From Escherichia coli (lineage in GTDB: Bacteria > Pseudomonadota > Gammaproteobacteria > Enterobacterales > Enterobacteriaceae): a stretch of 64,000 nucleotides of DNA. Below the pieces are notes generated by a model. It was given only the letters and a program-made list of their open reading frames with translations, made no database searches and was not told the DNA's origin. The stretch lies in NCBI RefSeq assembly GCF_022846255.1, contig NZ_AP025682.1, one strand, 5' to 3'. Every line of letters begins with the position of its first letter. The first letter of the stretch is position 1. The translations under genes were made by a program, and so were the position numbers. Positions 60,974 to 64,000 of this stretch are shown one piece after another.

Positions 60974-61783
60974 ATGGCAACAACACAACAATCTGGATTT
61001 GCACCTGCTGCATCGCCTCTCGCTTCGACCATCGTTCAGACTCCGGACGACGCGATTGTGGCGGGCTTCACCTCTATCCCTTCACAAGGGGATAACATGC
61101 CTGCTTACCATGCCAGACCAAAGCAAAGCGATGGCCCACTGCCAGTGGTCATTGTAGTGCAGGAAATTTTTGGCGTGCATGAACATATCCGCGATATTTG
61201 TCGCCGTCTGGCGCTGGAGGGGTATCTGGCTATCGCACCTGAACTTTACTTCCGCGAAGGCGATCCGAATGATTTTGCCGATATCCCTACGCTGCTTAGC
61301 GGTCTGGTAGCAAAAGTGCCTGACTCGCAGGTGCTGGCCGATCTCGATCATGTCGCCAGTTGGGCTTCCCGCAACGGCGGCGATGTTCATCGTTTAATGA
61401 TCACCGGATTCTGCTGGGGTGGACGTATCACCTGGCTGTATGCCGCGCATAATCCACAGCTAAAAGCCGCAGTGGCGTGGTACGGCAAACTGACGGGCGA
61501 CAAGTCGCTGAATTCACCGAAACAACCTGTTGATATCGCAACCGATCTTAACGCGCCGGTTCTCGGCTTATATGGTGGTCAGGATAACAGCATTCCGCAA
61601 GAGAGTGTGGAAACGATGCGCCAGGCGTTGCGGGCAGCAAACGCGAAAGCAGAGATTATCGTGTACCCGGATGCAGGGCATGCGTTCAACGCCGATTATC
61701 GTCCGAGCTATCATGCCGAGTCTGCGAAAGACGGCTGGCAGCGAATGTTGGAATGGTTTACACAGTATGGTGTTAAAAAGTAA
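60974..61783 (+). CDS. ysgA: dienelactone hydrolase family protein
   Basis: Start at ATG 60974 (RBS GGAG): MATTQQSGFAPAASPLASTIVQTPDD...; alpha/beta hydrolase with GFCWGG nucleophile elbow. Confidence 0.85.
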   Translation: MATTQQSGFAPAASPLASTIVQTPDDAIVAGFTSIPSQGDNMPAYHARPKQSDGPLPVVIVVQEIFGVHEHIRDICRRLALEGYLAIAPELYFREGDPNDFADIPTLLSGLVAKVPDSQVLADLDHVASWASRNGGDVHRLMITGFCWGGRITWLYAAHNPQLKAAVAWYGKLTGDKSLNSPKQPVDIATDLNAPVLGLYGGQDNSIPQESVETMRQALRAANAKAEIIVYPDAGHAFNADYRPSYHAESAKDGWQRMLEWFTQYGVKK

Positions 61784-61848
61784 CGCCATAGTCGCTAAAT
61801 CTGATGATTAAGCTCACACAATTTCAACGATTTTTTTAATCTCAAAAC

Positions 61849-61960
61849 CATACAGCATCAAAAAATTTGTTGCTGTATGCCACTCTTTGACTCCCTTCAC
61901 ATTCGTCATCACACCACCTGCTGAATGCAAAAATTTCGTTGCTGTGCGGCAAACTTTTTT
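61849..61960. promoter_or_regulatory. Repeated AAAAATTT(C)GTTGCTGT motifs, the first inside a 9 bp inverted repeat CATACAGCA-N13-TGCTGTATG; candidate regulatory sites upstream of the hydrolase operon
   Basis: Copies at 61861-61876 and 61930-61945 (~69 bp apart); inverted repeat arms 61849-61857 and 61871-61879; no sigma-70 consensus confidently assigned. Confidence 0.3.
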
Positions 61961-62039
61961 CCTGTTTTGTGCCGCTTTTCTCCTGAATACTCGTTCTCAG
62001 AACAACTGGATCGTTTAAACATCAGACAGGAGATTTACC

Positions 62040-62708
62040 ATGACGCAATCCATTTTTCAGGCTCAACCCTTTGAATTACCTTTTGATCCGCGCACAACTG
62101 CACTGGTCATGATCGACATGCAGCGTGACTTTGTCGAAGCAGGGGGCTTCGGTGAGGCACTGGGCAATGATGTTTCACTGGTACGCACGGCTATCGCACC
62201 ATGTACAGAGGTGCTGGCAGCCGCACGTCAAAAAGGAATTATGGTTATTCATACTCGTGAAGGCCATCGTGCAGACTTAAGCGACTGCCCGCCAGCCAAA
62301 CTGACGCGCGGCGGAAAAACCTTTATTGGTGAACCAGGACCGATGGGACGCATTCTGGTCAGAGGTGAAGCAGGTCATGACATCATTCCTGAACTGTACC
62401 CGGTGGCAGGCGAACCGGTGATTGATAAGCCTGGCAAAGGCGCGTTTTATCAAACCGACTTACATCTGATTTTGCAAAACCACGGTATCAAGACGCTGAT
62501 AGTTTGTGGTGTTACAACCGAAGTTTGCGTAACCACCACCGTGCGCGAAGCAAATGATCGTGGCTATGAATGCATTATCCCGGAAGATTGTGTCGGCTCC
62601 TATTTCCCGGAATTCCAGAAATACGCCCTCGAGATGATCAAAGCACAAGGTGCCATTTTCGGTTGGGTTACTGATTCCAAAGCCATTATTGCAGGCCTGG
62701 AAGGCTAA
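62040..62708 (+). CDS. isochorismatase-family cysteine hydrolase (RutB-like amidohydrolase)
   Basis: 222 aa; RBS ACAGGAGA; catalytic-triad contexts MIDMQRDF (Asp), DKPGKGAFYQT (Lys), GVTTEVCVTTT (Cys); resembles remembered RutB ureidoacrylate amidohydrolase. Confidence 0.8.
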   Translation: MTQSIFQAQPFELPFDPRTTALVMIDMQRDFVEAGGFGEALGNDVSLVRTAIAPCTEVLAAARQKGIMVIHTREGHRADLSDCPPAKLTRGGKTFIGEPGPMGRILVRGEAGHDIIPELYPVAGEPVIDKPGKGAFYQTDLHLILQNHGIKTLIVCGVTTEVCVTTTVREANDRGYECIIPEDCVGSYFPEFQKYALEMIKAQGAIFGWVTDSKAIIAGLEG

Positions 62709-62713
62709 CACCG

Positions 62714-63574
62714 ATGGTACAGGTTACGCTTTGCGCATCGTCGTTGGGATATCTTTTCCCGCAGAATGAAACGCAAGATTTACGTCTACATAGCGCTTTT
62801 AAACATGCGGTAAATCTGTATTCAGACGCGGGAACATTCATCACTCTGTTGTGTGCGCAAACGTATCTGAATCTCCCTGATGCAGCCAGAGTCTGGCTAC
62901 CTGAATGTTGGGACTGGCGAAGAGAGATTGCCCATTCAGATCCCATTCAGTTAACCCCAGGCTTACTGCGGACACCTCGATTTTGTGTGGCGCTCGAAAA
63001 CGCAACGCTCTGGCAGTCGCCATTTGTGGGGGGAATGCTGACACTTGAGGCATTCCCTTTGGTTTTCCAGCACTACCCAACGATGGCATCGCAACGGCTT
63101 TTATTTTGTCTGGAACATAACGTTCAAAGCACATTGCACCTGCCGGATAGTCTCACGCACCAGGGATTAGCGATTATGGAGCATCCAGATGCGCTGGAAC
63201 GCCAGGTGCCACAACTGATCGGCTTTGGTAAAGGCTTAACGCCCGATGGAGATGACTATTTGTTGGGCTATCTGGCAGCACTCTGGTTATGGCAACTCCC
63301 TGCACCACTTGCCGATCATCAATACCGGTTGCAGCAGGTAATTGATCAACATGCGCACAACACCACGGATATCAGTCGTCATTATCTGGAGCGTGCGCTT
63401 CAGGGACATTTTTCAGAACCGATTTGCCAGTTACTCGCACAACTGGTTGGGAGTGCATCGGCAATGACAATCGCATCCTGTGCAGAACAGGTCATGCAAT
63501 TTGGCGCAACGTCAGGAGTAGATTGCCTTGCAGGAATGCTGCATGGCTTTCGAACCCTGAACACCATGAATTGA
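62714..63574 (+). CDS. DUF2877-like protein (AllH/YlbF/YahE-type partner of FdrA-like proteins)
   Basis: 286 aa starting 6 bp after the hydrolase stop (translationally coupled); motif GKGLTPDGDDYLLGYL; family assignment from size and position before an FdrA-like gene. Confidence 0.55.
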   Translation: MVQVTLCASSLGYLFPQNETQDLRLHSAFKHAVNLYSDAGTFITLLCAQTYLNLPDAARVWLPECWDWRREIAHSDPIQLTPGLLRTPRFCVALENATLWQSPFVGGMLTLEAFPLVFQHYPTMASQRLLFCLEHNVQSTLHLPDSLTHQGLAIMEHPDALERQVPQLIGFGKGLTPDGDDYLLGYLAALWLWQLPAPLADHQYRLQQVIDQHAHNTTDISRHYLERALQGHFSEPICQLLAQLVGSASAMTIASCAEQVMQFGATSGVDCLAGMLHGFRTLNTMN

Positions 63575-63668
63575 TTTCAACCTTTTCTCCCGTAGCCCGT
63601 TTATGGGGCTACACGGGGATGCTTTGCCCGAATTTTGCTATCGGGCGGAATGAAACAGGCGTAACAGC

Positions 63669-64000
63669 ATGAAAGTTAAATATAAAGTTTTCAGTAATCT
63701 TTATCAGGACTCAGTTTCTCTGATGCAGATTTCCGCGCAAATCAGCAAGTTGCCCGGTATTCAACAGGCCTCGGTCGTCATGGGAACACCCAATAATCTC
63801 GAGCAATTGAGCGATGCGGGTCTGGGTAACGAAATCAACGCCAGTCCCAATGATTTAGTGATTGCAGTCATGGGTGAAGAAGATATTTGCAATGAAGCAC
63901 TGGTACTGGCCCAGCAACGTCTGACCAGCAAACCCGATGATGAAACGGATAGTGGCATTAAAACACCGGAAAAGGTCAGCCTGGAAATGGCACTGGAAGC
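63669..64000 (+). CDS. FdrA/AllF-like protein (CoA-binding/succinyl-CoA-synthetase-like fold), N-terminal 110 aa only; continues beyond window
   Basis: MKVKYKVFSNLYQDSVSLMQISAQISKLPGIQQASVVMGTPNNLEQLSDAGL...SPNDLVIAVMG aligns with remembered FdrA N-terminus (FQDSVSLM...VMMGTP...TPNDI); no stop in window. Confidence 0.8.
   Translation, partial: MKVKYKVFSNLYQDSVSLMQISAQISKLPGIQQASVVMGTPNNLEQLSDAGLGNEINASPNDLVIAVMGEEDICNEALVLAQQRLTSKPDDETDSGIKTPEKVSLEMALE

What the first reader, a model, noticed from the sequence alone, without database searches (positions are those of the whole stretch)
62040..64000. Second accessory operon after ysgA: RutB-like cysteine hydrolase, DUF2877-like protein, FdrA-like protein (truncated by window end)
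In K-12 as I recall it, ysgA is followed directly by metE. Here a co-directional, translationally coupled operon begins 256 bp after ysgA. The FdrA-like and DUF2877-like genes resemble the paralogous fdrA-ylbE-ylbF (allantoin region) and yahE-yahF-yahG clusters of E. coli; the fdrA-ylbE-ylbF set has been associated with oxamate carbamoyltransferase activity, while the yah set is uncharacterised. An isochorismatase-family amidohydrolase as the first gene suggests an amide or ureido compound is hydrolysed before a carbamoyl-transfer step, which would be an undescribed nitrogen-scavenging route. The window ends inside the third gene, so the remaining components cannot be seen.
Basis: partly seen in the sequence, partly recalled or inferred. 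Interest (0 to 1): 0.7.

Follow-up and report, generated by a model that had tools for sequence, protein, structure and literature searches.

The report
Accessory biuret/triuret nitrogen-scavenging gene cassette
The window ends inside an eight-gene accessory cassette of pathogenic and probiotic E. coli that is known as DNA but not by function. It most likely imports biuret- or triuret-type urea oligomers and breaks them down to ammonia and ATP by a route nobody has tested.

Summary
In genomes identical to the window but for one base, they begin an eight-gene cassette between ysgA and metE. K-12 lacks it. About 29% of complete E. coli genomes carry it, as do about 80 conjugative plasmids.

The DNA is already described. 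It is the ysgA-side half of the 2012 "tkt1 genomic island" of B2 ExPEC, and one of its proteins (c4763) has a crystal structure.

Gene 1 is not RutB-like in any useful sense. It belongs to the triuret hydrolase (TrtA) clade, and keeps all six residues that separate TrtA from biuret hydrolase as well as every triuret contact.

The same cassette order recurs in beta- and gammaproteobacteria. Across 80 species, this hydrolase subclade travels with its own AllF/AllG-type carbamoyltransferase genes (AllH detected in most), carbamate kinase and a free-standing allophanate-hydrolase C-domain, and never with a biuret hydrolase.

E. coli Nissle, which carries the cassette, uses biuret as a nitrogen source. 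K-12 does not.

Best reading:
- the cassette takes up biuret or triuret;
- the hydrolase removes an amide nitrogen;
- the carbamoyltransferase cleaves allophanate or carboxybiuret with phosphate;
- carbamate kinase makes ATP.

This is plausible and directly testable, but untested.

The parts
60974..61783 (+). ysgA (dienelactone hydrolase family). This is the core-genome gene that forms the left boundary of the insertion. It is not part of the cassette.
   Evidence: Annotated ysgA at L001 15191-16000, and L001 16001 corresponds to window 61784. In K-12 the gene lies directly next to metE.
61784..62039 (+). 256-bp intergenic and presumed promoter/operator region. It holds a 31-bp near-perfect palindrome at 61849-61879 and a partial direct copy at 61928-61957. 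An AGGAG ribosome-binding site lies 7 nt before the ATG.
   Evidence: Repeats and sequence. The scan found no sigma-70 consensus site. The palindrome is not conserved upstream of the plasmid copy or in other taxa, so its function is unproven.
62040..62708 (+). TrtA-type (triuret/biuret-family) isochorismatase-like cysteine hydrolase, 222 aa. Proposed entry amidase of the pathway.
   Evidence: Best solved relatives are TrtA 6XIX/6XJ4 (270 bits), ahead of BiuH 6AZO (237 bits) and RutB (105 bits). The catalytic D26/K130/C163 are present. All six TrtA-versus-BiuH discriminating residues are TrtA-type (FNAEYI). Criteria come from PMC7948467.
62714..63574 (+). AllH/DUF2877-type subunit of a three-subunit carbamoyltransferase, 286 aa.
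63575..63668 (+). 94-nt spacer within the operon, predicted to fold into two hairpins.
   Evidence: Minimum free energy -34.2 kcal/mol, z -2.5. No Rfam family matches. The spacer is not conserved in length in other taxa.
63669..64000 (+). 5' end (110 codons) of the AllF/FdrA-type subunit, cut by the window end. The full gene is 1560 nt.
   Evidence: NCBIfam NF004760: E 2.1e-15 for the fragment, and 496 bits against a cut-off of 433 for the full gene in SMS-3-5. Pfam gives Ligase_CoA plus CoA_binding. It is 42% identical to YahF and 40% to AllF.

Best explanation
The finding is the first 2 kb of a self-contained, horizontally mobile eight-gene cassette. It is about 8.2 kb long and lies between ysgA and metE.

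Gene order: TrtA-type cysteine hydrolase, AllH-like, AllF-like, AllG-like, carbamate kinase, free-standing allophanate-hydrolase C-domain (AH_C; identical to the CFT073 protein c4763, by my recollection of Kim et al. 2015, and to PDB 5C5Z), NCS1 permease, LysR regulator.

I propose that it lets the cell use linear carbamoyl-ureas (biuret and/or triuret, the latter an oxidation product of uric acid) as a nitrogen source with net ATP gain:
1. The NCS1 permease imports the compound.
2. The cysteine hydrolase removes a terminal amide nitrogen. Triuret gives 1-carboxybiuret; biuret gives allophanate.
3. The AllFGH-like complex cleaves the N-carbamoyl carboxylate with phosphate, by analogy with oxalurate + Pi -> carbamoyl phosphate + oxamate. 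Carboxybiuret would give carbamoyl-P + allophanate. Allophanate would give carbamoyl-P + carbamate.
4. Carbamate kinase converts carbamoyl-P + ADP to ATP + carbamate, which decays to NH3 + CO2.
5. AH_C handles an N-carboxylated remainder. Its exact step is unknown.

In effect the AllFGH-like enzyme plus carbamate kinase replace BiuH and/or the amidase domain of allophanate hydrolase.

Shown here or in published work:
- gene content;
- residue signatures;
- conserved synteny and co-occurrence;
- the activities of the characterised homologues;
- the Nissle biuret phenotype.

Inferred:
- the substrate;
- the phosphate-dependent cleavage step;
- the role of AH_C;
- the inducer.
For: - **Full cassette.** It is present in SMS-3-5, which is identical to the window over the last 2217 nt but for one base. 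Overlaps or short gaps link allF/allG (-4 nt), allG/CK (-8 nt), CK/AH_C (16 nt) and AH_C/permease (25 nt).
- **Hydrolase.** It is 59% identical to TrtA and 53% to BiuH, and scores far lower against RutB. It keeps the triad, the triuret contacts (D24, E72, K132, T158, E160, Q202 equivalents) and all six TrtA-type discriminators (criteria).
- **Other families.** AllH, AllG and FdrA are confirmed. Carbamate kinase scores above its equivalog cut-off. AH_C matches PF21986 at 1.8e-41 and is identical to PDB 5C5Z.
- **Purified AllFGH is oxamic transcarbamylase** (PMC11326118).
- **Synteny.** The same gene order occurs in Caballeronia, Dyella, Photobacterium, Serratia, Silvimonas and Paraburkholderia, with no other catabolic gene shared in the flanks.
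- **Co-occurrence in 80 species loci.** AllF/G linkage goes with carbamate kinase (13/17 versus 1/63) and with short AH_C (11/17 versus 4/63, p 1e-6). It never goes with a BiuH-type hydrolase (0/17 versus 14/63, p 0.03).
- **Subclade.** The linked hydrolases form a subclade (15 of 18). Their AllF/AllG/CK partners are closer to the island proteins (42-83%) than the island is to K-12 AllFGK or YahFGI (38-48%).
- **Specific to this set.** The K-12 all and yah clusters have no AH_C and no such hydrolase. K-12-type allFGHK is core (5423 of 5426 genomes), so the cassette is an extra set.
- **Phenotype.** E. coli Nissle 1917 uses biuret as a nitrogen source in Biolog PM3 and K-12 does not (PMC7924626). 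Nissle carries the island.
Against: - No enzyme of the cassette has been assayed. Phosphate-dependent cleavage of allophanate or carboxybiuret has never been shown for any enzyme.
- The sequence signature says triuret. [quoted passage not shown] The only phenotype clue is on biuret, from one strain pair that differs in much of its accessory genome, and triuret impurity in the Biolog well cannot be excluded.
- The characterised TrtA lies outside the AllFG-linked subclade, so specificity may have shifted.
- The protein is below NCBI's BiuH equivalog cut-off (280 versus 370 bits).
- 49 of 63 unlinked TrtA-type loci also lack a nearby BiuH. Absence within 10 kb is therefore weak evidence.
- The co-occurrence counts are not phylogenetically independent.
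- The proposed scheme gives AH_C no compelling step.
Confidence: 0.5

Rival explanations
1. It is a second oxalurate (oxamic transcarbamylase) system. The hydrolase would deamidate some oxalurate precursor, such as an oxaluric amide or a parabanate-derived compound. The AllFGH-like enzyme would then cleave oxalurate as in the allantoin pathway.
For: AllF and AllG are 40-48% identical to the proven oxamic transcarbamylase subunits, with an adjacent carbamate kinase. Oxalurate is also an oxidation product of uric acid. The nitrifier study annotates such genes as oxalurate catabolism.
Against: Every cassette-bearing E. coli already has the core allFGHK genes. The hydrolase keeps the whole triuret-binding set. 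The allophanate-hydrolase C-domain travels with this clade but is absent from the all operon. The partners form their own clade.
Confidence: 0.12
2. It catabolises a different, unidentified ureide or N-carbamoyl amide. The substrate would be related to biuret and triuret in shape, possibly a nucleobase breakdown product, with the same hydrolase-then-carbamoyltransferase logic.
For: The hydrolase subclade is distinct from characterised TrtA. The transporter is of the NCS1 nucleobase/hydantoin type. The regulator's best family matches are the purine-linked PunR and AllS. The paralogous yah cluster is also of unknown substrate.
Against: All known substrate-contact and discriminator residues are identical to TrtA. 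The Nissle biuret phenotype fits the biuret/triuret family. AH_C points to allophanate-type chemistry.
Confidence: 0.22
3. It is a pyrimidine (Rut-like) degradation module. CodB-like uptake of a pyrimidine would be followed by RutB-like hydrolysis to carbamate, as suggested in the BEN2908 genome paper.
For: The hydrolase is 32% identical to RutB and the permease 26% to CodB, as reported in PMC12928451.
Against: RutB scores 112 bits against a cut-off of 378, while TrtA and BiuH score 270-280 bits. The cassette contains no RutA-type ring-opening enzyme in any taxon. This reading leaves AllFGH and AH_C unexplained.
Confidence: 0.03
4. It is a urea-utilisation system working through allophanate that substitutes for urease. 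This is how PMC7558591 summarises the crystal-structure paper on c4763.
For: AH_C is homologous to the C-domain of allophanate hydrolase and urea amidolyase. The claim is relayed in PMC7558591.
Against: No urea carboxylase and no amidase domain is present in the cassette in any of the taxa examined. The 129-aa protein lacks the catalytic amidase domain.
Confidence: 0.03

Closest known systems
Hydrolytic triuret/biuret pathway (TrtA, TrtB, BiuH, AtzF) of Herbaspirillum sp. BH-1 and Rhizobium leguminosarum
   Same: The entry enzyme belongs to the same TrtA-type clade, with identical catalytic, substrate-contact and discriminator residues. The AH_C domain is shared with AtzF. Both are nitrogen-scavenging pathways that end in NH3 and CO2.
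   Different: The cassette has no BiuH, no TrtB and no amidase domain. An AllFGH-type carbamoyltransferase and a carbamate kinase sit in their place, so the proposed route uses phosphate cleavage and yields ATP. The permease is NCS1 rather than the unannotated 9-TM protein found beside most TrtA-type genes.
AllFGH-AllK oxamate branch of anaerobic allantoin degradation in E. coli K-12
   Same: Three subunits of the same Pfam families plus an adjacent carbamate kinase. The presumed chemistry is the same: a carbamoyl group is transferred to phosphate and then used for substrate-level phosphorylation.
   Different: This is a paralogue, not an orthologue: 40-48% identity for AllF and AllG, and 33% over the C-terminus only for AllH. 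The gene order differs (H-F-G rather than F-G-H). It has no allantoin genes, and it is linked to a TrtA-type hydrolase, AH_C, a permease and its own LysR regulator. It is accessory, whereas allFGHK is core.
yahB/yahD-yahEFG-yahI-yahJ cluster of E. coli K-12 (uncharacterised)
   Same: The order DUF2877-FdrA-DUF1116-carbamate kinase is the same, and both have a LysR neighbour. Identities are slightly higher for FdrA (42%), the kinase (48%) and the DUF2877 subunit (26% over nearly its full length). The DUF1116 subunit is marginally closer to AllG (48%) than to YahG (46%).
   Different: The yah cluster has a metal-dependent amidohydrolase (YahJ) and an ankyrin protein in place of the cysteine hydrolase. 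It has no AH_C and no NCS1 permease.
tkt1 genomic island of APEC O1 / GR29 of BEN2908 / c4763 of CFT073
   Same: This is the same DNA. APECO1_2632-2639 are the eight cassette genes, and the hydrolase and AH_C proteins are identical (same WP accessions).
   Different: The window's lineage carries only the 8.2-kb cassette. The extra 7.5-kb tkt1/PTS/hxlB module found in B2 strains is absent. Published work treated the eight genes as hypothetical, or guessed at pyrimidine or urea use.

Membership tests
Isochorismatase-like cysteine hydrolases | Asp-Lys-Cys catalytic triad and the V-T cis-peptide motif before the Cys | tested here: met
   D26, K130 and C163 are present, within GVTTEVC, which is identical to TrtA.
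TrtA (triuret hydrolase) | Six residues that separate TrtA from BiuH (F35, N41, A134, E160, Y187, I205 in TrtA; Y, Y, S, D, T, V in BiuH) | tested here: met
   The signature is FNAEYI in the window protein and in all cassette orthologues. TrtA-type and BiuH-type sequences are reciprocally monophyletic in a neighbour-joining tree. The criterion comes from PMC7948467.
TrtA (triuret hydrolase) | Triuret-contacting residues D24, E72, K132, T158, E160 and Q202 | tested here: met
   All are conserved in the alignment to 6XIX.
TrtA (triuret hydrolase) | Genomic clustering with biuH and atzF, as in the defining organisms | tested here: not met
   No BiuH-type gene and no full-length AtzF lies in the cassette. 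None of the 17 AllF/G-linked loci has a BiuH-type gene.
TrtA (triuret hydrolase) | Specific hydrolysis of triuret to carboxybiuret | not testable with these tools
   This needs an enzyme assay. The protein belongs to a subclade that does not contain the characterised enzyme.
BiuH (biuret hydrolase) | NCBIfam equivalog NF050097 cut-off and the BiuH-type signature residues | tested here: not met
   It scores 279.8 bits against a cut-off of 370. The signature is FNAEYI, not YYSDTV. The Nissle biuret phenotype keeps the activity itself open.
RutB (ureidoacrylate amidohydrolase) | TIGR03614 equivalog cut-off | tested here: not met
   It scores 111.9 bits against a cut-off of 377.95.
AllFGH-type three-subunit carbamoyltransferase | Adjacent genes of the AllH (PF11392), FdrA/AllF and AllG (PF06545) families | tested here: met
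   AllH E 6.5e-27. FdrA 496 bits against a cut-off of 433. AllG E 8.6e-99. AllG and most of AllF lie beyond the window end, in genomes identical to the window but for one base.
Oxamic transcarbamylase proper (orthologue of K-12 AllFGH) | Orthology to allFGH and an allantoin-pathway context | tested here: not met
   Identity is 40-48% (33% for AllH), about the same as to the yah set. The core allFGHK coexists in 5423 of 5426 genomes. The flanks contain no allantoin genes.
Oxamic transcarbamylase proper (orthologue of K-12 AllFGH) | Carbamoyl transfer between oxamate and phosphate | not testable with these tools
   This needs an assay of the purified complex.
Carbamate kinase | TIGR00746 equivalog cut-off | tested here: met
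   It scores 364.4 bits against a cut-off of 358.25. The gene lies outside the window.
Allophanate hydrolase (AtzF/DUR1,2) | Amidase-signature catalytic domain together with the AH_C domain | tested here: not met
   Only AH_C is present: 129 aa, PF21986 E 1.8e-41, matching just residues 472-595 of the 600-residue profile.

The most novel reading that the evidence does not exclude
A previously unrecognised route for breaking down urea oligomers that yields ATP. An AllFGH-type carbamoyltransferase would cleave allophanate and/or carboxybiuret with phosphate to give carbamoyl phosphate, in place of biuret hydrolase and allophanate hydrolase. The module is conserved from E. coli through Burkholderiales, Vibrionaceae and Mycolicibacterium to Chloroflexi. 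By gene content it looks like the biuH-allFGHK clusters reported in comammox and archaeal ammonia oxidisers, which I did not analyse. In ExPEC, APEC and Nissle it would link host- or bird-derived uric-acid oxidation products (triuret) to bacterial nitrogen and energy supply.
Probability: 0.4. Interest if true: 0.75.

Novelty: new variant of a known kind. Interest (0 to 1): 0.6.

Why it matters
- **A function for a long-unexplained island.** The cassette sits in an island carried by most B2 ExPEC (80.6% of UPEC and 94.1% of NMEC in the 2012 survey), by Nissle 1917 and by large IncF conjugative plasmids, many from poultry. Yet its eight genes have had no assigned function for over a decade.
- **A possible niche adaptation.** A concrete substrate class would explain an orphan phenotype, Nissle's growth on biuret. 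It would also suggest adaptation to uric-acid-rich or inflamed sites such as the urinary tract and the bird gut.
- **New biochemistry.** It would extend the newly defined AllFGH enzyme family to a second substrate. It would add substrate-level phosphorylation to biuret, triuret and cyanuric-acid catabolism. It would also change how the 'oxalurate genes' next to biuH in nitrifier genomes are read.

Tried and rejected
- **Upstream region.** The sigma-70 scan found nothing. The 31-bp palindrome is not conserved in the plasmid allele or in other taxa, so I do not claim it as an operator.
- **RNA families.** Rfam found nothing real.
- **AllF-like catalytic histidine.** I looked for a conserved phospho-histidine. 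H226 alternates with Arg among homologues, so I make no such inference.
- **Alternative permease.** Pfam and NCBIfam do not recognise the protein found next to most TrtA-type genes.
- **Literature.** Searches for CFT073 locus tags c4761-c4767 found nothing. No paper in the library links biuret or triuret with fdrA and carbamate kinase other than as adjacent pathways. The c4763 structure paper and the allophanate hydrolase structure paper are not held. What I say of them rests on memory or on secondary citation.
- **Rejected readings.** I rejected the RutB/pyrimidine and urea-carboxylase readings because the defining partner enzymes are absent.
- **Naive ORF calling.** Calling ORFs in the flanks of high-GC loci was too noisy to type further neighbours.
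Full report
**Observation**

The window's last 2 kb holds three co-directional ORFs at the stated coordinates: 62040-62708 (222 aa), 62714-63574 (286 aa), and an ORF from 63669 that runs off the end. ysgA ends at 61783, giving the stated 256-bp gap.

- Gene 1 is an isochorismatase-family cysteine hydrolase.
- Gene 2 matches Pfam AllH/DUF2877, E 6.5e-27.
- The gene 3 fragment matches the FdrA subfamily.

K-12 MG1655 has ysgA directly next to metE, so the operon is accessory. One detail is off. Genes 1 and 2 are 5 nt apart, but genes 2 and 3 are 94 nt apart, so the visible part is not translationally coupled throughout.

**What lies beyond the window**

The last 2217 nt match E. coli SMS-3-5 and many other genomes, with one mismatch to SMS-3-5 at 63568. 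In these genomes the operon continues as follows:

1. full-length FdrA/AllF-like gene;
2. DUF1116/AllG-like gene (Pfam AllG, 8.6e-99);
3. carbamate kinase (above its equivalog cut-off);
4. a 129-aa protein that is only the C-terminal domain of allophanate hydrolase (AH_C; PF21986, 1.8e-41);
5. an NCS1 'cytosine permease'-type transporter;
6. a LysR regulator whose best family matches are PunR and AllS;
7. then metE.

Gene overlaps and short gaps link the last six genes.

**Distribution and prior description**

- 1559 of 5426 complete E. coli genomes carry the region.
- About 1135 of them have it as the ysgA-side half of a 16-kb island that also carries tkt1, a PTS gene and hxlB.
- About 362, like this window, have only the 8.2-kb cassette abutting metE.
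- 82 conjugative plasmids carry a 94.5%-identical allele. Of these, 78 are from E. coli and 4 from Klebsiella. About half of the 60 I listed come from chickens, ducks or turkeys. The one I examined is IncFIA/FIB/FIC.

[quoted passage not shown] That survey found it in 80.6% of B2 UPEC and 94.1% of B2 NMEC, and listed the eight genes as hypothetical (PMC3349570). A 2026 paper calls it GR29 and guesses at pyrimidine degradation (PMC12928451).

The AH_C protein is 100% identical to PDB 5C5Z. From my own recollection of Kim et al. 2015 this is c4763 of CFT073. That paper is not held here. A secondary citation reports it as proposing urea breakdown. So the DNA is known and its function is not.

**What gene 1 is**

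Its best solved relatives are the triuret hydrolase TrtA of Herbaspirillum (6XIX/6XJ4, 270 bits, 59% identity). Biuret hydrolase BiuH follows (237 bits, 53%). RutB is far behind at 105 bits.

The TrtA paper defines six positions that separate more than 500 TrtA and BiuH sequences. TrtA has F35, N41, A134, E160, Y187 and I205; BiuH has Y, Y, S, D, T and V. The paper also lists the triuret contacts D24, E72, K132, T158, E160 and Q202 (PMC7948467). The window protein and all its cassette orthologues have the TrtA state at every one of these positions. It falls below NCBI's BiuH cut-off (280 versus 370 bits) and far below RutB's.

**Comparative genomics**

Proteins 80-88% identical to the hydrolase occur in Caballeronia, Paraburkholderia, Silvimonas, Dyella, Serratia, Edwardsiella, Photobacterium, Vibrio, Shewanella, Avibacterium and Psychrobacter. 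Where I looked, the same gene order recurs with unrelated flanks. The module is therefore self-contained.

A scan of one genome per species returned 80 loci with TrtA-type hydrolases, 62-86% identical to the window protein.

| Feature within 10 kb | AllF/AllG-linked loci (17) | Other loci (63) |
|---|---|---|
| Carbamate kinase | 13 | 1 |
| Free-standing short AH_C | 11 (p 1e-6) | 4 |
| BiuH-type hydrolase | 0 (p 0.03) | 14 |
| Full-length AtzF | 2 | 17 |

- In a neighbour-joining tree the TrtA-type and BiuH-type sequences are reciprocally monophyletic. The AllFG-linked hydrolases form a subclade: 15 of 18 members are linked. The three exceptions are two short contigs and one Cys-to-Ala variant. 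The characterised TrtA lies outside this subclade.
- The linked AllF/AllG/kinase proteins are 42-83% identical to the island's proteins. The island's set is only 38-48% identical to K-12 AllFGK or YahFGI. The hydrolase and its carbamoyltransferase therefore appear to have travelled together for a long time.
- The K-12 all and yah clusters have neither AH_C nor such a hydrolase.
- K-12-type allFGHK is core, present in 5423 of 5426 genomes. The cassette is a third, additional set.

**Phenotype clue**

Biolog PM3 includes biuret as one of its nitrogen sources. E. coli Nissle 1917 grew on biuret and K-12 MG1655 did not. The authors named no gene for this (PMC7924626). Nissle carries the entire island, identical to that of CFT073.

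This is one strain pair and only a correlation. Still, the cassette contains the only TrtA/BiuH-family enzyme I encountered in E. coli.

**Proposed mechanism**

Purified AllFGH interconverts oxalurate + Pi and carbamoyl phosphate + oxamate, and AllK makes ATP from carbamoyl phosphate (PMC11326118 and PMC9843812).

The products of TrtA and BiuH are close analogues of oxalurate (H2N-CO-NH-CO-COO-):
- 1-carboxybiuret, H2N-CO-NH-CO-NH-COO-;
- allophanate, H2N-CO-NH-COO-.

Carboxybiuret is known to be handled enzymatically by more than one route.

I therefore propose this pathway:
1. NCS1 uptake.
2. Deamidation by the TrtA-type hydrolase.
3. Phosphate-dependent removal of carbamoyl groups from carboxybiuret and/or allophanate by the AllFGH-like complex.
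4. ATP formation by carbamate kinase, followed by spontaneous decay of carbamate.

Where AtzF has an amidase domain fused to AH_C, these loci have AllFGH plus the kinase and a free AH_C. That fits AllFGH replacing the amidase on an allophanate-type substrate. From memory, the yeast enzyme's C-domain was proposed to decarboxylate N-carboxycarbamate. What AH_C does in the cassette remains open.

All of these steps are inference.

**Weaknesses**

- Sequence says triuret, while the phenotype is on biuret.
- The subclade may have altered or broadened specificity.
- Absence of BiuH within 10 kb is also common among unlinked loci.
- The co-occurrence counts are not phylogenetically corrected.
- The key phosphate-cleavage reaction has no precedent.

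The nitrifier-genome paper saw the same co-location of biuH/trtA with allFGHK (and sometimes codB). It read them as two adjacent pathways, with allFGHK serving oxalurate (PMC12625717). No paper in the searchable library proposes a single pathway.

**Verdict**

The families and the general logic are right. 'Undescribed' and 'RutB-like' need correcting.
- The locus is a known island whose function is unresolved.
- The best-supported reading is a new variant of two known systems, triuret/biuret hydrolysis and the AllFGH-AllK branch, joined into one ATP-yielding pathway.
- It can be tested directly with a cassette transfer into K-12 and a coupled enzyme assay.

Noticed in passing
window 61849-61879 and 61928-61957: A 31-bp near-perfect palindrome (CATACAGCATCAAA-AAA-TTTGTTGCTGTATG) lies upstream of gene 1, with a partial direct copy 69 bp downstream. 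It could be a regulator site, but it is absent upstream of the plasmid allele and in other taxa.
   Followed up: partly
window 63575-63668: The 94-nt spacer between the AllH-like and AllF-like genes folds into two hairpins (-34.2 kcal/mol, z -2.5). No Rfam family matches. Other taxa have a short gap or an overlap at this position.
   Followed up: partly
L017:7930-9552 and the equivalent position in 60 of the 80 loci L011-L090: A conserved membrane protein of about 500-560 aa, with about 9 predicted TM segments, sits directly beside the TrtA-type hydrolase in most species. It has no Pfam or NCBIfam match. It is probably the usual triuret/biuret permease. The E. coli-type cassette uses an NCS1 permease instead.
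   Followed up: partly
L010 (plasmid NZ_CP059918.1) 24171-26183: On the IncF plasmid, about 7 kb downstream of its copy of the cassette, there is a further LysR / ankyrin / DUF2877 (yahB-yahD-yahE-like) cluster. The plasmid therefore carries two paralogous sets. An iron ABC transporter and MFS genes lie upstream.
   Followed up: no
window about 54.4-59.9 kb (between rmuC and udp): A second accessory islet is absent from K-12. It encodes an IclR regulator, 2-dehydro-3-deoxygalactonokinase, an aldolase and a TctCBA tripartite tricarboxylate transporter. It corresponds to the '5-kb islet with 6 ORFs' mentioned by Li et al. 2012.
   Followed up: no
window 63568: This is the only difference from SMS-3-5 in the last 2217 nt (G versus A). 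It makes residue 285 of the AllH-like protein Met instead of Ile.
   Followed up: yes
[not shown]
   Followed up: partly
L091 3948-5081 and L092 5358-6491 (B2 form of the island): The longer B2 form of the island carries a tssD (Hcp) pseudogene with an internal stop, and small hypothetical ORFs, between metE and the tkt1 module.
   Followed up: no
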